A stretch of 6,363 nucleotides of DNA. Source: Candidatus Woesearchaeota archaeon. GTDB lineage: Archaea; Nanobdellota; Nanobdellia; UBA10117; CAYGVN01. A model generated the notes under the pieces. That model worked only from the letters and a program-made list of their open reading frames with translations, searched no databases and was not told where the DNA came from. Positions 1,750-6,363 of this stretch are shown here, piece by piece. Location: the NCBI GenBank assembly GCA_964353445.1, contig CAYGVN010000049.1, positions 1 through 6,363 of the forward strand. The letters are read 5' to 3'. The translations under genes and the position numbers were made by a program. Positions within the stretch are counted from its first letter, which is position 1, and each line of letters opens with the position of its first letter.

Positions 1750-2401
1750 TTATTTTCTCACCTTTATTAAATAAGTAAACATCTCCAATAAATTTTAGAT
1801 TTTTGCTATTATATGCTAATGCGTGTCCTTCTGGAATAGCATAAATTTTAATATTGGTTTTTTTTGATAAATTTTTAAGATTCTTAGCTGGCGACTCTCC
1901 TGAAAGTAATTTTTTTGGTCCTCCATAATGCACAGAAACTGCAAAATCAACTAATCCAATACCTTGCTCAAAAGCTGTTTTTGGGCGATGATCCTGTCCT
2001 TTTATGACCGCATATTTCTTGCACAGCGCAAGAGAACCGGCACTATTTCCAACGATTGTGCCAGCATATTTTTTTAAGTATGGCACAATTTTCTTTTCAT
2101 GCAGTTTTTTTACTAAAAATTTAGGCTCTCCGCCAGGCAAGTAAATCAAATCTGAAGAATTTATTTTTTCTACAATTTTGTGCAAAGGATCTGAAATTTC
2201 TGGATATATTATTTTCTTTGCGCCAATATTTTTGAAATAATCTACCGTGCTTTTTCTATATTTTTTCTTCTCGACTTTTGCAGTCCAAGGAAACACAAGA
2301 ATTACTGGTGAATTATTAATATCCGCAAATATTTTTTTAACTAATCCTTTATGTTCACCTTTTTCGAAATCTGTTCCACCAAGAAAATATAATTTCGGCA
2401 T
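1736..2401 (-). CDS. Peptidase S51 family protein (dipeptidase E / cyanophycinase-like, class I glutamine-amidotransferase-like fold), 221 aa
   Basis: Motifs match the S51 pattern: LPGGEP, then GNSAGS (nucleophile-elbow Ser), then a downstream His (VSVHY) and Glu (IPEGHA), consistent with a Ser-His-Glu triad. GGAGG lies 10 nt upstream of the ATG. The start overlaps the pheS stop (TAATG) and the 3' end overlaps the pheT start by 14 nt. Confidence 0.75.
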   Translation of the reverse strand: MPKLYFLGGTDFEKGEHKGLVKKIFADINNSPVILVFPWTAKVEKKKYRKSTVDYFKNIGAKKIIYPEISDPLHKIVEKINSSDLIYLPGGEPKFLVKKLHEKKIVPYLKKYAGTIVGNSAGSLALCKKYAVIKGQDHRPKTAFEQGIGLVDFAVSVHYGGPKKLLSGESPAKNLKNLSKKTNIKIYAIPEGHALAYNSKNLKFIGDVYLFNKGEKINADN

Positions 2402-3933
2402 TAGAGCTTCGCCTCCCTCAGCCAGTCCAAATCATAGCTGAACAGCTGGCGGATATCAACGATGTTTTCTTTAACCATAAACAGCCTGTCGATACCAATT
2501 CCCCAAGCAAGCACAGGAACTTTTATTCCAAGAGCCCCTGTCAGTTCTGGCCTGAAAATTCCTGCTCCGAATGCTTCCATCCAGGTTCCAAGTTTTTCAT
2601 TATACACATAGCCTGTTACAGAAGGCTCTGTAAATGGGAAATAAGCAACTGGAACTATTTTCACTTTGTTTGTTTTGGTTATCTTTACTGCAAAATCTCT
2701 CAGCAAACCAAGCAATTGCCTGAAATTTAATTTTTCTCCAAGAACAATGCCTTCGCAATGATTAAACTCAACTAAATGAGTTGCATCTAATTTATCCGGC
2801 CGATAGCATCTTGCAATTCCAAAGTATTTTCCAGGAATTTTTAAGTTAGGGCTCATCAGAGTGCGCGCAGAAAGCGCTGTTCCTTGAGAGCGCAGAATGT
2901 ATCTGGCTGTTTCCTTTTCATCAAATTTTGTCTGCCAGCCAGTTGAGCTAAATCCTCCTTTCTCATGCACCTGCTTGACAGCTTTTACAGATTTGGAATA
3001 TTTTCCAAGATTTGCATATTTCGGCTCCTTGACAAAATAAATATCATGAATTCCCCGCGCAGGATGATCCTGCGGCATGTACAGCGAATCGCAGTTGAAG
3101 AAATTAGTCTCCACCAGCGGGCCAGTCATTTCTTCAAAACCCATTGAAACTAGCTCTTCTTTAACTTCATCTAAAAAAGCTCTGTACGCCTGTTTTTTTC
3201 CTGCAAATAACCTTGGAACAGGGGCGCTGATATCATATCTTCTTAAACTAATTTTTTCCCAGCCTTTTGTCTTAATCAAATCTGGAGTCAATGTTCCTAT
3301 TCTCTTCTTTTCCTTCAGAATCTGGGCTTCAACTTGTTCGCCTAAATGCGTGATTTCAAAATCGCGCAGTTTTCGGGCTGATTGTATTACAAGCCCTCTT
3401 TTTTTCAGAGCTTCAAGAGCATATTTCTCTTCAGAAGATAATTTTTCAGCATTTACTTCTTTTTCTCTGGCAAGCTTCTCCAGGAAAAGCTCTTCCAGAC
3501 TTTTATTTTTCAAGAATGCTGCGCCTATATCTGTGATACTTGCTTTTCCATCTTCTAATTTTATACAGCCTTTTGTTTTAAGATAGCCCAAGGCGAACTT
3601 CAGCTCTGTGCTTCCCAGCCTGCCAGCTTTCTCGATTTCTTCTAGATACATAGGCTCTTTGAGAACTGATAAAAATCTTTTTTCAGGAAGAATTTCTTCT
3701 GTGTACTTTTCTCCTAAATTGCTTAGGCTGACAATTTTCTCTTCTTGCTCTTTTACTGCAACAAGCCCTTTATTTTGCAGCCAGAGAGCAGCTCTCGCAA
3801 GAATATCTCCTGACAAGCCGGTTGCTGATTTCAAAGCCTCTATATCAGCTTTATCCACTCTTTTTAGAGCCTTTAGAATAACAATTTCAGCAGCCTGCAA
3901 TGCTTCTGCAACCTTTTCTATGTCTATGGCCAT
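2401..3933 (-). CDS. pheS: Phenylalanine--tRNA ligase alpha subunit, archaeal/eukaryal type (510 aa from ATG 3933; the ORF track extends to a GTG at 3957)
   Basis: Class II aaRS core is present: QDHPAR, LRSQGTALSARTL (equivalent to LRTHTSAVSAR), CYRPDKLDATHLVEFNHCEG, FPFTEPS, GAGIFRPE, AWGIGIDRL. A long helical N-terminal extension matches archaeal/eukaryal alpha subunits. I prefer ATG 3933 because the TATA box TTTAAATA (3959-3966) lies 25 nt upstream of it, and the GTG at 3957 falls between the TATA box and the predicted transcription start. Confidence 0.93.
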   Translation of the reverse strand: MAIDIEKVAEALQAAEIVILKALKRVDKADIEALKSATGLSGDILARAALWLQNKGLVAVKEQEEKIVSLSNLGEKYTEEILPEKRFLSVLKEPMYLEEIEKAGRLGSTELKFALGYLKTKGCIKLEDGKASITDIGAAFLKNKSLEELFLEKLAREKEVNAEKLSSEEKYALEALKKRGLVIQSARKLRDFEITHLGEQVEAQILKEKKRIGTLTPDLIKTKGWEKISLRRYDISAPVPRLFAGKKQAYRAFLDEVKEELVSMGFEEMTGPLVETNFFNCDSLYMPQDHPARGIHDIYFVKEPKYANLGKYSKSVKAVKQVHEKGGFSSTGWQTKFDEKETARYILRSQGTALSARTLMSPNLKIPGKYFGIARCYRPDKLDATHLVEFNHCEGIVLGEKLNFRQLLGLLRDFAVKITKTNKVKIVPVAYFPFTEPSVTGYVYNEKLGTWMEAFGAGIFRPELTGALGIKVPVLAWGIGIDRLFMVKENIVDIRQLFSYDLDWLREAKL

Positions 3934-3958
3934 CCTTACTCTGCTAAATAATTTCACT

Positions 3959-4252: not shown

Positions 4253-4793
4253 GCTTGATAATATCAGACTTAGCTATCTGCGGCTTCTTCAGCAGATTAT
4301 CAACAGCATTGAGAAGCCTCTCGCCGCCTAATTTTGAAAGCTCGACTTCTGCATCTATTATCTTGCTGACGAGCTCGGAGGGGGCAAGTTCTCTCTTCAG
4401 AGCCTGCTTGATATGGCCGAGCAGGAATTCTATTCTGTGTTCTTCTTCTTTCAGCTTTGCAAGCTCTGCCTTGATAACGTCTCTGCCAGGCAAATGAATC
4501 TTTGACCGTTCAAGCCCGACAGAAATATTTTTGCTCAGCTTTTCAAGCTCTTTCTGCAGGCCAGCCTGCCTTGCCAGCAACTGGACAAAAATATCCCTCT
4601 CGTTTTCAAAATGCTCCTTTTTCCTTACAAGCTCAGCAAGAGCTTTCAGGTTCGGTTCCAAAGCATTGATGTCAAAAATAAATTTTTCCTCTCTTTTGCA
4701 GATAGAATCTATCTCTTCTTTGGCTTTCTTGACGCCCTGTTCTGTCAGCAGTCTCTTTTCAGCAATAATATCTTTTCCCATTTTAACATGCAT
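4236..4793 (-). CDS. Hypothetical coiled-coil protein, 185 aa (alternative start at Met5, coordinate 4781)
   Basis: Long ORF with E/K/L-rich, heptad-like composition (AELAKLKEEEHRIEFLL, LQKELEKLSKN). The antisense ORFs are S/F-rich junk. I recognise no domain. There is no promoter motif or Shine-Dalgarno upstream, and the first ATG directly abuts tRNA-Ile. Confidence 0.7.
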   Translation of the reverse strand: MHVKMGKDIIAEKRLLTEQGVKKAKEEIDSICKREEKFIFDINALEPNLKALAELVRKKEHFENERDIFVQLLARQAGLQKELEKLSKNISVGLERSKIHLPGRDVIKAELAKLKEEEHRIEFLLGHIKQALKRELAPSELVSKIIDAEVELSKLGGERLLNAVDNLLKKPQIAKSDIIKLSQLR

Positions 4794-4910
4794 GGGCCTG
4801 GGCTGACTTTCTCGCAGAGAAAACCAGCGAAAACCGCAGTTTTCAGCGCGTTTGAACAGCCGACCTCTCGATTATCAGTCGAGCGCTCCACCAGGCTAAG
4901 CTACAGGCCC
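4793..4910 (-). tRNA. tRNA-Ile (anticodon GAU) with a 44-nt non-canonical intron in the T-loop; no encoded CCA
   Basis: Minus strand reads GGGCCTG TA GCTT AGCCTGGTG GAGC G CTCGA CTGATAA TCGAG AGGTC GGCTG TTCAAA[44 nt]T CAGCC CAGGCCC A. All four stems pair perfectly, and the spliced product is 74 nt with T-loop TTCAAAT. Confidence 0.9.
4807..4850 (-). other. tRNA-Ile intron (44 nt), most parsimoniously at position 59/60 of the T-loop
   Basis: It lies between TTCAAA and T-CAGCC. Internal hairpin is GAAAAC-TGCG-GTTTTC. The junctions can form only a relaxed bulge-helix-bulge: T-stem as outer helix, U54-U55-C56 pairing with the intron GAA, an AG|U 3' bulge, and intron CGCG pairing with UGCG. The exact junction is ambiguous by 1-3 nt. 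Confidence 0.7.
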
Positions 4911-5386: not shown

Positions 5387-5647
5387 TTAATTGTTTGGCG
5401 GATTGTATATCCCTGCGATGAACTCTATGGATTCTTTACATATTCTATAGACCTGATTCCATTTATTATTTTGTTCTTCCCACTTTGTATAAATAATTCC
5501 TAAATCAGTTAAAATATCCAGCGCTTGATTTAACGTCACAGAATCTATTGTCTTTTCTAATTCTGAAAAAGAAGATGATTTCTTTTCGATTTCTGAACGG
5601 TGATAAATCTCATATGCGACAATTAATTCAGGTGAAATTTCTGCCAT
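5387..5647 (-). CDS. Hypothetical small protein, 86 aa, possible winged-helix DNA-binding fold
   Basis: The ORF has a promoter motif 22 nt upstream of its ATG. The segment FSELEKTIDSVTLNQALDILTDLGIIYTKWEEQNNKWNQVYRI looks like helix-turn-helix plus a beta-hairpin wing. The fold assignment is by eye only. Confidence 0.6.
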   Translation of the reverse strand: MAEISPELIVAYEIYHRSEIEKKSSSFSELEKTIDSVTLNQALDILTDLGIIYTKWEEQNNKWNQVYRICKESIEFIAGIYNPPNN

Positions 5648-5685: not shown

Positions 5686-5823
5686 TGGACTGGTCGGGAC
5701 GGACCCTTTTCTAAAGAAAAGGTCCCGTAGCTCCCCAAAAGGAGATTTTCTTCGCTTTGCTCAGAAAATCGTAAATGTAATTCTTTCTGAAGGATGCGCA
5801 GGACTTTCTTTTGAAGAAAGAGA
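5686..5823 (-). ncRNA. Structured 3' flank of tRNA-Ala (about 138 nt): three hairpins plus one arm of a long-range helix; function unknown
   Basis: Minus-strand hairpins are CTTTCTT-CAA-AAGAAAG (5804-5820), TCAGAAAG...TTTTCTGA (5761-5790) and ACGGGACCTTTTC-TTTA-GAAAAGGGTCCGT (5699-5728). TCTCCTTTTGGGG (5733-5745) is complementary to 5927-5940. The 3' part is GC-rich in an AT-rich genome. I do not consider any ORF here credible. Confidence 0.35.
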
Positions 5824-5895
5824 TGGACCAGCCGGGAATCGCACCCGGAGCCTCCTGCGTGCGAGGCAGGCACTCTACTATTGAGCTACTGGCCC
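5824..5895 (-). tRNA. tRNA-Ala (anticodon CGC), intron-less, no encoded CCA, with atypical D-loop and T-loop
   Basis: Minus strand reads GGGCCAG TA GCTC AATAGTA GAGT G CCTGC CTCGCAC GCAGG AGGCT CCGGG TGCGATT CCCGG CTGGTCC A. The G3:U70 alanine identity pair is present and all stems pair. Confidence 0.88.
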
Positions 5896-5995
5896 ATTTT
5901 TGTGTGCTTGAGCGAATATCAACACACCTCTCTTTTGGGGTTGGTCCAGACCTTTTCTCTGTCGAGAGAAAAGGGAAGGACTGAGCAACTGGCCC
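5896..5995 (-). ncRNA. Structured 100-nt element upstream of tRNA-Ala that begins with a partial copy of the tRNA 5' end (GGGCCAGTtGCTCA); a leader, tRNA remnant or unknown small RNA
   Basis: The first 15 nt match tRNA-Ala positions 1-15 at 14 of 15. A 38-nt hairpin follows: GTCC-TTC-CCTTTTCTCT-CGAC-AGAGAAAAGG-TCT-GGAC (5944-5981). Next is CCCCAAAAGAGAGG (5927-5940), complementary to 5733-5745, and then a 7-bp hairpin at 5902-5927. A consensus promoter is placed to initiate at about 5995. Confidence 0.35.
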
Positions 5996-6020
5996 ATCCA
6001 AAAATATAAAAGCTGATGTC

Positions 6021-6027
6021 TTTTAAA
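6021..6027 (-). promoter_or_regulatory. TATA box (TTAAACTTTAAAAGA) positioned 25 nt upstream of the tRNA-like 5' end at 5995
   Basis: The motif and spacing match the tRNA-Ile and pheS promoters. A second AT-rich block, TTTTATATTTTT (6000-6011), is a weaker alternative. Confidence 0.5.
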
Positions 6028-6091
6028 GTTTAATGAGACAGCCTGAGCTCAATGCAGCTCAGAAAGTCCAATCTGAATAATCAGATGGACT

Positions 6092-6129: not shown

Positions 6130-6363
6130 ATGGCAGAGGACAGAATAATCTTCTTAGGTACAGGTGGAGGCCGGGTTGTTGTGGCCAACCAGATGGTTGC
6201 CACTGGCGGCTTTGTAATTCAGCTAGCAGGCTGGCAGATTCATGTAGACCCGGGCCCGGGAGCAACTGCAAGAGCAAAGCAATTCGGAATAAGGCCTCCA
6301 AGAACAGATATTGTTTTTGTTTCTCATCATCATATCGACCATGTTAATGATTTGAATGCAGTA
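6130..6363 (+). CDS. MBL-fold metallo-hydrolase, N-terminal 78 codons (partial, continues past the window end)
   Basis: Absent from the ORF track because no stop is reached. Translation is MAEDRIIFLGTGGGRVVVANQMVATGGFVIQLAGWQIHVDPGPGATARAKQFGIRPPRTDIVFVSHHHIDHVNDLNAV. It contains the metallo-beta-lactamase HxHxDH motif (HHHIDH), preceded by the beta-strand/GTGGG and DPGPG elements typical of the fold. Confidence 0.85.
   Translation, partial: MAEDRIIFLGTGGGRVVVANQMVATGGFVIQLAGWQIHVDPGPGATARAKQFGIRPPRTDIVFVSHHHIDHVNDLNAV

What the first reader, a model, noticed from the sequence alone, without database searches (positions are those of the whole stretch)
5686..6027. tRNA-Ala embedded in a ~310-nt GC-rich, hairpin-dense unit that starts with a promoter-positioned duplicate of the tRNA 5' end
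tRNA-Ala(CGC) at 5824-5895 has no promoter motif at the usual distance. The window's consensus promoter (AAACTTTAAAA, 6021-6027) instead sits 25 nt upstream of a second GGGCCAGTtGCTCA at 5995, which matches tRNA positions 1-15 at 14 of 15. tRNA-Ile shows the same TATA-to-+1 geometry. After that duplicate the sequence is not tRNA-like but is highly structured. There is a 38-nt hairpin with a symmetric 3x3 internal loop (5944-5981) and a 7-bp hairpin (5902-5927). Downstream of the tRNA there are three more hairpins (5804-5820, 5761-5790, 5699-5728), and the 5944-5981, 5804-5820 and 5699-5728 hairpins share a CTTTTCT/AGAAAAG core. CCCCAAAAGAGAGG (5927-5940) upstream is complementary to TCTCCTTTTGGGG (5733-5745) downstream: 9 bp, a 1-nt bulge, then 4-5 bp. 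That helix would bracket the whole tRNA, much like the processing stems that bracket archaeal rRNAs. Possible explanations are an unusually long structured leader and trailer needing RNase P or endonuclease processing, a processing-stem excision or circularisation unit, a decayed tandem, split or multi-intron tRNA-Ala gene, or an undescribed small RNA co-transcribed with the tRNA. I could not fold the flanks into a second tRNA.
Basis: partly seen in the sequence, partly recalled or inferred. Interest (0 to 1): 0.7.

Follow-up and report, generated by a model that had tools for sequence, protein, structure and literature searches.

The report
tRNA gene nested in mobile-intron debris
An intact alanine tRNA gene of a tiny DPANN archaeon sits inside a hairpin-rich inverted-repeat element wedged between the first 15 and last 13 bases of a tRNA-Ala gene; sister strains carry a plain gene at the same promoter, so this is a snapshot of mobile, intron-like DNA remodelling a tRNA locus rather than a new RNA-processing device.

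Summary
tRNA-Ala(CGC) lies at 5895-5824 on the minus strand. The only well-placed promoter (TTTAAAA, 6027-6021) is 25 nt upstream of a second GGGCCAGTTGCTCA at 5995. The hairpins and the leader-trailer complementarity exceed shuffled controls. The flanks are not a second tRNA: 5135 leader-trailer joins gave none, and no convincing bulge-helix-bulge site brackets the tRNA.

Three near-identical strains were decisive. L182 and L190/L191 share the promoter and downstream flank but start a leaderless, different tRNA-Ala(CGC) allele at the same +1. That allele ends in CCCGACCAGTCCA, identical to window 5698-5686.

L190 has a 157-nt foldback trailer whose last 72 nt equal window 5770-5699. The window's leader arm (5981-5925) is homologous to that trailer's left arm and to the start of a tRNA-Ile intron in L182. 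It pairs with the right arm (5747-5699) at -51.5 kcal/mol.

The unit is therefore a DNA-level mosaic of a tRNA, intron-type foldback modules and tRNA-end fragments. It is probably read as one roughly 310-nt precursor cut by RNase P and tRNase Z; this last step is inferred. Similar end duplications recur in related archaea: 8 upstream and 18 downstream among 206 tRNAs, against about 0.1 expected.

The parts
6021..6031 (-). Archaeal TATA-type promoter AAACTTTAAAA; its TTTAAAA core ends 25 nt before G5995
   Evidence: Read from sequence. tRNA-Ile at 4910 has the same 25-nt spacing. Sister strains L182 and L190 carry the same promoter, there driving a leaderless tRNA-Ala. In related contigs the TATA-to-tRNA distance peaks at 22-28 nt.
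5981..5995 (-). E1: GGGCCAGTTGCTCAG, a copy of tRNA-Ala positions 1-15 (13/15), placed at the transcription start
   Evidence: Local alignment. 0 of 5000 shuffles reach the match. It occupies the +1 position of the tRNA in L182 and L190. It ends where D-loop introns begin in relatives, after GCTCAG.
5925..5981 (-). Left arm of the foldback module. It holds the 38-nt hairpin 5944-5981, the acceptor-3'-like CTGGACCA (5942-5949) and CCCCAAAAGAGAGG (5927-5940).
   Evidence: Hairpin z -3.2. Duplex with the right arm -51.5 kcal/mol. Homologous to the L190 trailer left arm and to the start of the L182 tRNA-Ile intron, 0 of 1000 shuffles each.
5902..5927 (-). Hairpin GTGTGTTGA-TATTCGC-TCAAGCACAC, followed by the A-rich linker 5896-5901
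   Evidence: Fold z -1.6. No homolog found in any locus.
5824..5895 (-). Intact intron-less tRNA-Ala(CGC) with G3:U70, A73, T-loop UGCGAUU and D-loop AAUAGUA
   Evidence: ARAGORN and Rfam at 66.3 bits. 93% identical to the syntenic tRNA-Ala(CGC) of L183/L185/L123 but only 78% to the allele of sister strains.
5771..5823 (-). Diverged left part of trailer element Z, including hairpin 5804-5820 and the 5' arm of hairpin 5761-5790 (its 3' arm runs on to 5761)
   Evidence: Aligns with L190 3719-3803 at reduced identity. Hairpin CTTTCTT-CAA-AAGAAAG corresponds to CTTTTCTT-AAA-AAGAAAAG in L190.
5699..5770 (-). Right part of trailer element Z. It holds the motif TGAGCAAAGCGAAG (5750-5763), TCTCCTTTTGGGG (5733-5745) and the hairpin GGGACC...GGGTCC (about 5701-5726).
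   Evidence: 72 of 72 identical to L190 3804-3875. L190 Z folds as a rod at -58.4 kcal/mol, z -6.2. The motif matches the spacer TGAGCGAAGCGA of repeat arrays in L179 and L099 at 12 of 14.
5686..5698 (-). E3: CCCGACCAGTCCA, the T-stem 3' strand, acceptor 3' strand and A73 of the sister-strain tRNA-Ala allele
   Evidence: 13 of 13 identical, together with the downstream flank TACAAAAACTTATAAG, to the 3' end of the tRNA-Ala in L182; the 13 nt and TAC also match L190, whose downstream flank then differs. 10 of 13 to the inner tRNA.
4793..4910 (-). Context: tRNA-Ile(GAU) with a 44-nt non-canonical intron (4807-4850) at position 59/60, from the same genome
   Evidence: Rfam 23.8 bits unspliced. ARAGORN calls tRNA-Ile(GAU) once 4807-4850 is removed. 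Sister strain L182 has a 99-nt 37/38 intron instead and none in the T-loop.

Best explanation
The 342-nt region is a mosaic made at the DNA level. It is not a purpose-built RNA device.

Layers:
1. An intact tRNA-Ala(CGC) gene (5895-5824).
2. Two arms of a roughly 50-nt inverted repeat around it (5981-5925 and 5747-5699), plus extra hairpins. The arms belong to a family of hairpin-rich foldback modules. In sister strains this family appears as a 157-nt trailer after tRNA-Ala and as the first part of an anticodon-loop intron in tRNA-Ile.
3. Outside the arms, the first 15 nt and last 13 nt of a tRNA-Ala gene. They sit exactly where a leaderless tRNA-Ala(CGC) gene starts and ends in sister strains with the same promoter and downstream flank.

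Inferred history: a foldback element inserted at the 3' end of the resident gene and duplicated about 16 nt of that end. Later, recombination swapped the resident gene for a block carrying another tRNA-Ala allele, its own 5'-end duplicate and a foldback arm.

Inferred operation: the single promoter starts transcription at G5995. The precursor carries a 100-nt leader and a trailer of up to 138 nt. RNase P and tRNase Z release the inner tRNA. The flanks are by-products with no shown function.
For: Anatomy:
- tRNA, duplicate and promoter spacing are confirmed.
- The flanks cannot form a tRNA.

Sister strain L182 is 95-97% identical in the flanks. It has the same promoter followed directly by one tRNA-Ala(CGC) with a 44-nt 59/60 intron. 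That gene ends in CCCGACCAGTCCA+TAC..., identical to window 5698-5686 and onward.

Strains L190/L191 have the same promoter and allele, then a 157-nt foldback trailer. Its last 72 nt equal window 5770-5699 and its first part is a diverged homolog of 5823-5771.

Allele origin:
- The inner tRNA is 78% identical to the sister allele.
- It is 93% identical to the syntenic tRNA of more distant relatives L183/L185/L123.
- The block was therefore recombined in.

Module homology: the leader arm matches the L190 trailer left arm and the L182 tRNA-Ile intron start, 0 of 1000 shuffles each. Arm-arm duplex is -51.5 kcal/mol.

Intron position in tRNA-Ile differs between the window (59/60) and L182 (37/38). 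The element family is therefore active at strain level.

Generality:
- Among 206 tRNAs in related contigs, 8 have upstream copies of their 5' end and 18 have downstream copies of their 3' end, against about 0.1 expected.
- L019 tRNA-Glu and tRNA-Ile are nested in the same way.

Literature:
- RNase P ribonucleoprotein proteins are reported in all archaeal genomes examined (PMC6380272).
- Closest published model: mobile-element-driven tRNA fragments and intron gain within one population (PMC3293823).
- Intron transposition among tRNAs (PMC4033280).
Against: - No transcript data exist. The start at 5995, read-through and RNase P/Z cleavage are inferred.
- The fixed TATA-to-+1 spacing in this clade suggests leaderless tRNAs. 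A 100-nt leader is then atypical and its removal is not guaranteed.
- E1 carries the acceptor sequence of the inner allele (GGGCCAG), not the resident allele (GGGCTGG). It is therefore not a simple relic of the resident gene.
- No transposase or integrase was found, and no long DR-flanked insert apart from one 5-kb case (L081).
- Upstream and downstream end-copy hairpins in other lineages show compensatory changes and GNRA-like or GAA loops, and the outer acceptor pairing in L019 is perfect. Some RNA-level or ssDNA-level selection therefore cannot be excluded.
- The ancestral allele H (trailer flanked by two copies of the 3' end) is inferred, not observed.
Confidence: 0.62

Rival explanations
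1. The leader and trailer are selected RNA elements. The nested outer stem, minihelix-like hairpins and foldback trailer would help fold, protect, terminate or process the precursor. Examples: tRNase Z or RNase P entry sites, an insulator or terminator, or sequestration of duplicated tRNA ends so they do not compete with the acceptor stem.
For: - The unit folds far better than shuffles.
- The L190 trailer is a very stable rod, z -6.2.
- Three T4 runs lie in the trailer.
- End-copy hairpins recur beside many DPANN tRNAs and are enriched more than 50-fold over chance.
- Stems covary in the L067/L149/L165/L077 upstream units and in 24 downstream TGGACT-hairpin-AGTCCA units.
- All such mimics replace G3:U70 with a Watson-Crick pair or a mismatch (read).
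Against: - Sister strains with the same promoter do without any leader, and one does without the trailer.
- The closest syntenic relatives L001, L083 and L183 have plain genes.
- The window's outer acceptor pairing is broken at 2 of 7 pairs.
- The same modules occur inside introns, where they are discarded.
- Upstream units are the reverse complement of downstream units, including the spacer (TCACTTCGTTC against TGAACGAAGCGA). This points to a strand-independent DNA process.
Confidence: 0.2
2. The outer pieces are exons of a functional disrupted tRNA, either multi-intron, split or tri-split. The inner tRNA's own ends would be intronic, or the outer pieces would be trans-spliced to a middle piece encoded elsewhere.
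For: - E1 ends exactly at the D-loop intron site used in relatives, after GCTCAG.
- The genome does splice non-canonical introns: the tRNA-Ile 59/60 intron.
- E1 joined to the inner tRNA from position 16 gives a valid tRNA-Ala.
- GAGC at 5733-5730 could pair with GCTC of E1, like the decoy helix of D-loop introns.
Against: - No anticodon arm lies in the flanks, and none of 5135 joins makes a tRNA.
- Cutting at the GAGC decoy yields a 57-nt product with no anticodon arm, which ARAGORN does not call a tRNA.
- The sequence before the inner D-loop is GTAGCTCA, identical rather than complementary to the exon. No bulge-helix-bulge site can form for the E1-to-inner join.
- The outer T-arm insertion has no BHB geometry (hand check).
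- E1 and E3 pair at only 5 of 7 positions.
- Sister strains lack the outer layer.
Confidence: 0.04
3. A processing stem analogous to archaeal rRNA stems. The leader-trailer helix would present bulge-helix-bulge sites so that the splicing endonuclease excises, and the ligase circularises, a tRNA-containing intermediate.
For: A long-range helix brackets the tRNA. The organism has an endonuclease that accepts relaxed motifs, as implied by the tRNA-Ile intron.
Against: The helix has one 1-nt bulge. No pair of 3-nt bulges 4 bp apart lies at useful positions, and BHB-scan candidates are noise-level with none cutting at the tRNA ends. The known tRNA-Ile intron itself ranked poorly in that scan, so the scan is weak evidence either way.
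Confidence: 0.05
4. Assembly artefact: a metagenome assembler threaded two strain alleles into one chimeric contig.
For: At least three alleles of this locus coexist in public data, and they share long identical stretches: the promoter and the 72-nt right part of Z.
Against: - The Z|E3 junction (GGGTCCGT|CCCGACC) and the E1 and leader sequences have no counterpart in the other alleles from which a graph chimera could be built.
- The same nested design is seen in an unrelated MAG, L019.
Confidence: 0.05

Closest known systems
tRNA-Thr(GGU) locus heterogeneity in a Caldiarchaeum subterraneum population (Sugahara et al. 2012, PMC3293823)
   Same: Strain-level alleles of one tRNA locus differ by intron gain and by a 5' tRNA fragment left upstream as a direct repeat. 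The authors explain this by a mobile element integrating at a tRNA terminus, followed by recombination.
   Different: In that case a 1.8-kb insert encodes a recombinase. Here the inserts are 85-157 nt, non-coding foldback modules. Fragments lie at both ends, the intact tRNA is nested between inverted-repeat arms, and no recombinase was found.
Transposed BHB introns of Thermoproteales tRNAs (Fujishima et al. 2010, as summarised in PMC4033280)
   Same: Similar intron sequences occur in different tRNA species and positions. Here one module family occurs in the tRNA-Ile 37/38 intron, the tRNA-Ala trailer and the tRNA-Ala leader. A second family is shared by the window's tRNA-Ile 59/60 intron, the L083/L089 tRNA-Ile intron and a sequence interrupting the tRNA-Ala gene of L100.
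   Different: The lineage differs (DPANN). The modules also sit outside the tRNA as leader and trailer with duplicated tRNA ends, which was not part of that description.
attL/attR direct repeats left by SSV-type and pNOB8-type integrases at tRNA genes
   Same: A displaced copy of the tRNA 3' end lies downstream of a functional gene, and an empty site exists in a related strain (L182).
   Different: No integrase or cargo is present. The segment between the repeats is only 125-157 nt, a 5' duplicate exists as well, and the inserts are long inverted repeats.
Split, tri-split and permuted tRNA genes (Nanoarchaeum, Caldivirga, Thermofilum; PMC3218864)
   Same: tRNA gene pieces are flanked by structured complementary sequence in a DPANN archaeon. 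The promoter sits at a fixed distance from +1, as in the RNase P-free N. equitans.
   Different: A complete tRNA is present. The outer pieces lack an anticodon-bearing partner and do not assemble.
Foldback/MITE-like and REP/BIME-type palindromic repeat elements
   Same: Short non-coding elements made almost wholly of inverted repeats. They show presence/absence polymorphism between strains and form tandem arrays in relatives (L179, 51 nt x 4.6).
   Different: Their ends copy the termini of the tRNA they adjoin, the inferred duplication is 13-16 nt, and no parent IS or RAYT-type gene was seen.

Membership tests
Canonical tRNA-Ala (inner gene) | Cloverleaf scoring above the Rfam tRNA threshold, with an NGC anticodon, G3:U70 and A73 | tested here: met
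   Rfam 66.3 bits against a gathering score of 29. ARAGORN calls Ala(cgc). G3:U70 and A73 read from the alignment.
Intron-containing / multi-intron archaeal tRNA (outer gene) | The exons, once joined, form a complete cloverleaf including an anticodon arm | tested here: not met
   5135 leader-prefix + trailer-suffix joins give 0 tRNAs, and E1 plus the sequence after the GAGC decoy gives none.
Intron-containing / multi-intron archaeal tRNA (outer gene) | A bulge-helix-bulge or relaxed HBh' motif at each exon-intron boundary | tested here: inconclusive
   The scan gives many weak candidates, none yielding a tRNA. By hand, GCTC/GAGC (5986-5983 / 5733-5730) can pair, but the product lacks an anticodon arm. 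The scan also ranks the genuine tRNA-Ile intron poorly.
Split / tri-split tRNA | Separately transcribed pieces whose flanking complementary sequences pair to form a BHB, with the partner piece(s) elsewhere in the genome | not testable with these tools
   Only 6.3 kb of the genome is available. Within it no anticodon-bearing partner exists.
Permuted tRNA | The 3' half is encoded upstream of the 5' half in one transcript | tested here: not met
   The order is 5' fragment, full tRNA, 3' fragment.
rRNA-type processing stem | A long leader-trailer helix bracketing the RNA | tested here: met
   The MFE fold pairs 5927-5940 with 5733-5745. Arm-arm duplex is -51.5 kcal/mol.
rRNA-type processing stem | Two 3-nt bulges separated by 4 bp within that helix (BHB) | tested here: not met
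   The helix has a single 1-nt bulge, and the scan found no BHB there.
Integrated mobile element at a tRNA gene (att footprint) | A direct repeat of a tRNA terminus flanking the insert | tested here: met
   E3 is identical to the sister allele's 3' end and 10 of 13 to the inner tRNA. E1 matches the 5' end at 13 of 15.
Integrated mobile element at a tRNA gene (att footprint) | An empty (uninserted) site in a close relative | tested here: met
   L182 has neither leader nor trailer. L190 has the trailer only.
Integrated mobile element at a tRNA gene (att footprint) | An integrase or recombinase gene, or other cargo, between the repeats | tested here: not met
   The inserts are 85 and 125 nt and non-coding. 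Only one related locus (L081) has a 5-kb insert, and it has no Pfam integrase.
MITE / foldback element | Terminal inverted repeats making up most of a short non-coding element, polymorphic between strains | tested here: met
   L190 Z folds as a rod, z -6.2. Arms are homologous and complementary. The element is present in the window and L190 and absent in L182.
MITE / foldback element | Multiple dispersed copies in the genome and a related autonomous transposon | not testable with these tools
   The genome is not available. Within the sampled alleles, copies occur at tRNA-Ala and in a tRNA-Ile intron only.
Any described RNA family (Rfam 15) for the flanks | A covariance-model hit at or near the gathering score | tested here: not met
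   Only tRNA hits. The best flank hit is CRISPR-DR57 at 20 bits against a threshold of 39, E 0.9. Related loci give none.

The most novel reading that the evidence does not exclude
The hairpin-rich foldback modules may be an undescribed class of small non-autonomous mobile elements of DPANN archaea that home to tRNA genes.

- They copy 13-16 nt of the tRNA terminus (or the D-loop or T-loop edge) that they invade.
- They can travel with, or recombine in, a replacement tRNA.
- They interconvert between three states: spliced BHB intron, 5' leader and 3' trailer or array.

If so, loci like this one are caught intermediates showing how non-canonical archaeal tRNA introns and tRNA fragments arise.
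Probability: 0.3. Interest if true: 0.8.

Novelty: new variant of a known kind. Interest (0 to 1): 0.58.

Why it matters
How archaeal tRNA genes acquire non-canonical introns, fragments and split arrangements is a long-running question. It has mostly been argued from comparisons between species.

Here three alleles of one locus, in strains about 95-97% identical, differ by a leaderless intron-bearing gene, a foldback trailer, and a nested tRNA with duplicated ends. The same module appears as an intron in a neighbouring tRNA.

That makes mobile-element origin of introns, and tRNA allele replacement, testable with read-level population data and RNA-seq from the named samples.

It also matters for annotation. 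ARAGORN missed the tRNA-Ile here and many disrupted tRNA-Ala genes in relatives. A 100-nt leader in a lineage with leaderless-type promoters is a natural test of whether these organisms rely on RNase P.

Tried and rejected
- Exact look-ups of window proteins failed.
- The MBL-fold N-terminus search gave only a 64% relative on a contig without a tRNA.
- The first metagenome DNA pattern, 36 nt of the inner tRNA, found nothing.
- A viral-contig scan for the outer 5' piece hit only coding sequence by chance.
- My BHB scan was too noisy to support or exclude endonuclease sites. It did not rank the true tRNA-Ile intron.
- Attempts to assemble a second tRNA from the flanks, by hand and exhaustively, failed.
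- blastn and nhmmer of leader and trailer against 1.65 Mb of related loci gave only chance 13-mers. Homologs appeared only once sister-strain contigs were fetched.
- A search for long-range direct repeats flanking integrase-bearing inserts found one 5-kb case without a recognisable integrase.
- I considered casposon-like (14-15-bp duplication), IS200/IS605-PATE-like, attC-like and ssDNA-hairpin mechanisms for the end-copy hairpins. None could be tested, and none is claimed.
- I considered that leader and trailer spacers form a processing stem. The complementary spacers occur in different loci, not in the same transcript.
Full report
**Organism and layout**

All relevant features are on the minus strand. 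Phenylalanyl-tRNA synthetase alpha (2401-3957) is at most 58% identical to Woesearchaeota/Pacearchaeota-type DPANN genomes. Gene order, read along the minus strand:
- an MBL-fold gene, divergently transcribed (from 6130, plus strand);
- the tRNA-Ala unit;
- an 86-aa orphan ORF;
- a 113-aa membrane protein;
- tRNA-Ile;
- a 185-aa protein;
- PheRS alpha, then a peptidase S51 homologue (1736-2401), then a 543-aa ORF at 118-1749 that I take to be PheRS beta (not searched).

**Checking the observation**

ARAGORN and Rfam agree on tRNA-Ala(CGC) at 5895-5824, at 66 bits.

TTTAAAA (6027-6021) is followed by exactly 25 nt and then GGGCCAGTTGCTCA at 5995. tRNA-Ile at 4910 has the same 25-nt spacing.

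The duplicate matches tRNA positions 1-14 at 13 of 14. No shuffle of 5000 reaches this.

Fold statistics:

| Region | Result |
|---|---|
| Whole 316-nt unit | -116.5 kcal/mol, z -5.3 |
| Hairpin 5944-5981 | z -3.2 |
| Other hairpins | z -0.2 to -1.9 |
| Leader-trailer duplex | -67 vs -41 +/- 5 kcal/mol, 0/1000 shuffles |

The TTTTCT..AGAAAA core occurs three times against 0.14 expected.

The trailer ends in CCCGACCAGTCCA, a 10 of 13 copy of the tRNA 3' end.

**What it is not**

- The flanks contain no Ala anticodon arm.
- Joining every leader prefix to every trailer suffix (5135 products) gave no tRNA.
- The bracketing helix has a 1-nt bulge and no bulge-helix-bulge geometry.
- My BHB scan found nothing that cuts at the tRNA ends, though the scan is weak.
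- Rfam has no family for the flanks.

**tRNA-Ile as context**

The 23.8-bit Rfam hit at 4910 becomes a clean tRNA-Ile(GAU) once 4850-4807 is removed. This is a 44-nt intron at position 59/60 with a relaxed BHB: T-stem as outer helix, UUC/GAA as central helix. The genome therefore splices non-canonical introns.

**Relatives**

More distant syntenic relatives have plain leaderless tRNA-Ala(CGC) genes next to the MBL gene. Examples:
- L001
- L183 and L185
- L186
- L188
- L083, which has a short D-loop intron

A metagenome scan for the clade's unusual tRNA-Ala 3' part (T-loop UGCGA) returned 120 loci. About 40% of these genes are interrupted: D-loop introns after GCTCAG, or long anticodon-loop introns.

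Copies of a tRNA's own ends beside the gene are common in these contigs. Among 206 tRNAs:
- 8 have an upstream copy of the first 12 nt;
- 18 have a downstream copy of the last 11 nt;
- about 0.1 of each is expected by chance.

This is not limited to Ala. L019 tRNA-Glu and tRNA-Ile each carry a promoter-positioned 5' copy and a 3' copy with an inserted hairpin in the T-arm. That is the same nested design as the window.

**The decisive comparison: three alleles of this locus**

The membrane protein has 99%-identical homologs. Their contigs give two further alleles.

*L182 (ENA ERZ27247725).*
- The promoter is 39 of 40 identical.
- The region from E3 through the membrane gene is 682 of 719 identical.
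- The promoter is followed directly by one tRNA-Ala(CGC), here called T2: acceptor GGCTGG/CCAGTCC, anticodon stem CGACC/GGTCG, and a 44-nt 59/60 intron.
- T2 ends in CCCGACCAGTCCA TACAAAAACTTATAAG. This is identical to window 5698-5686 and its downstream flank.

*L190 = L191 (Logan SRR29366192 / SRR29366204).*
- Same promoter (left flank 349 of 368 identical) and same T2.
- Then TAC and a 157-nt trailer, Z. Its last 72 nt are identical to window 5770-5699. Its first part is a diverged homolog of 5823-5771.
- The membrane-gene promoter follows directly. There is no second 3'-end copy and no 86-aa ORF.

In shorthand, with P the promoter, e the tRNA 3'-end block, O the 86-aa ORF region and M the membrane gene:

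| Allele | Structure |
|---|---|
| L182 | P-T2(e)-O-M |
| L190 | P-T2(e)-Z-M |
| Window | P-[E1-leader-T1]-Z-e-O-M |

The simplest common ancestor is P-T2(e)-Z-e-O-M. In it Z was inserted at the tRNA 3' end with a duplication of about 16 nt. This ancestor is inferred, not observed.

The window's inner tRNA (T1) is only 78% identical to T2, with compensatory differences in every stem. It is 93% identical to the syntenic tRNA of L183/L185/L123. The block from +1 to inside Z (5995 to about 5771) was therefore recombined in, not evolved in place.

**The flanks are a foldback module family shared with introns**

- L190 Z folds into a rod at -58.4 kcal/mol, z -6.2. Its left and right arms are inverted repeats.
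- The window's leader arm (5981-5925) is homologous to the L190 left arm and to the reverse complement of the right arm.
- The leader arm pairs with the right arm (5747-5699) at -51.5 kcal/mol. The window's own degenerate Z-left pairs with the right arm at only -29 kcal/mol.
- The same module (a CCTTTYCTCT hairpin, an 11-nt linker, then CCAAAAGA-type tract) opens the 99-nt anticodon-loop intron of tRNA-Ile in L182. None of 1000 shuffles reaches that score.
- tRNA-Ile intron position differs between the window (59/60) and L182 (37/38).
- The window's 59/60 intron has homologs in the tRNA-Ile of L083/L089 and in L100, where the matching sequence lies inside the tRNA-Ala gene just upstream of its 3' part.

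**How it most likely works**

Shown:
- one correctly spaced promoter;
- an intact inner tRNA;
- no alternative tRNA from the flanks;
- absence of the leader in sister strains.

Inferred:
- transcription from G5995;
- possible termination at T4 runs in the trailer (5768-5765, 5740-5737, 5720-5713);
- release of the tRNA by RNase P and tRNase Z.

RNase P ribonucleoprotein proteins are reported in all archaeal genomes surveyed (PMC6380272). By standard wobble rules a UGC isoacceptor can read GCG. The CGC gene may therefore be under relaxed constraint, which would explain why this isoacceptor accumulates disruptions. This last point is inference.

**Comparison with what is known**

The closest precedent is the Caldiarchaeum tRNA-Thr locus. 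There, strain-level alleles differ by an extra intron and a 5' tRNA fragment, attributed to integration of a mobile element and recombination (PMC3293823). Intron transposition among Thermoproteales tRNAs is also close (PMC4033280).

Differences here:
- the inserts are tiny non-coding foldbacks with no recombinase;
- fragments lie at both ends;
- an intact tRNA sits between the arms;
- the same modules serve as intron, leader and trailer.

My literature searches found no description of this arrangement in DPANN. One paper notes that DPANN genomes hold unidentified disrupted tRNA genes (PMC5829648). The searches cover open-access text only.

**Verdict**

This is a new variant of a known kind, namely mobile-element-driven tRNA gene disruption and allele turnover. 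It is interesting mainly as a population-level snapshot, and for the recurrent but mechanistically unexplained end-copy hairpin elements.

Noticed in passing
window 4793-4910 (-): tRNA-Ile(GAU) with a 44-nt intron (4807-4850) at the non-canonical 59/60 position. ARAGORN misses it and Rfam scores it below threshold. Sister strain L182 has a 99-nt 37/38 intron instead and an intact T-loop.
   Followed up: yes
window 5824-5895; L001; L060-L179: tRNA-Ala genes of this clade have T-loop U54-G55-C56 (UGCGAUU or UGCGAAU) instead of UUC, and a 7-nt D-loop (AAUAGUA or AGCAGUA) without the GG pair.
   Followed up: partly
L179 6500-6941; L129; L070; L077; L099; L145; L173: Arrays of units of about 35-45 nt, TGGACTG-hairpin-(A)AGTCCA, occur only downstream of tRNA-Ala on the same strand. 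L179 has a 51-nt unit x 4.6 at 98% identity. Many hairpin loops are C-GAA-G or GCAA. The 12-nt spacer TGA(A/G)CGAAGCGA contains GCGAAGC. Window 5750-5763 (TGAGCAAAGCGAAG) matches the spacer plus the next two bases in L179 (TGAGCGAAGCGAAT) at 12 of 14.
   Followed up: partly
L067, L149, L165, L077 (upstream of tRNA-Ala); L098 (tRNA-Ser): Conserved upstream units have this order: 5'-end copy, covarying hairpin, CGCTCC, acceptor-3'-like strand with G3:U70 replaced, spacer TCAC(A)TTCGTTC, then the tRNA. The spacer is the reverse complement of the downstream-unit spacer. L098 has three tandem 105-nt upstream units.
   Followed up: partly
L019 (tRNA-Glu, rc 1023-1095; tRNA-Ile 7367-7489): Two adjacent divergent tRNAs are each nested between a promoter-positioned 5' copy and a 3' copy. 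The T-loop of each 3' copy holds a hairpin with the conserved loop TTTCACGAA. The outer acceptor stems pair perfectly.
   Followed up: partly
L081 7011-12025: A tRNA-Ala and a 2-mismatch copy of its 3' end flank a 5-kb insert. The insert encodes an 827-aa protein that hits a PHROG of unknown function (2e-12), and no Pfam integrase. It is a possible integrated element.
   Followed up: partly
window 5387-5647 (-): The 86-aa ORF has only two matches among 5.8 billion proteins: its own contig and L182. It is absent from the L190/L191 allele, so it is a strain-variable orphan with its own TATA-like box.
   Followed up: partly
window 6130-6363 (+); L001, L083, L183, L186, L188, L190: The MBL-fold (Lactamase_B_2 / Apyc1-like) gene is divergently adjacent to tRNA-Ala(CGC) in all syntenic relatives examined. 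tRNase Z belongs to the same superfamily, but no functional link was tested.
   Followed up: no
L182 position 41: The L182 tRNA-Ala starts with T where L190/L191 have G, giving U1 opposite C72. This is either an assembly error or a damaged allele.
   Followed up: no
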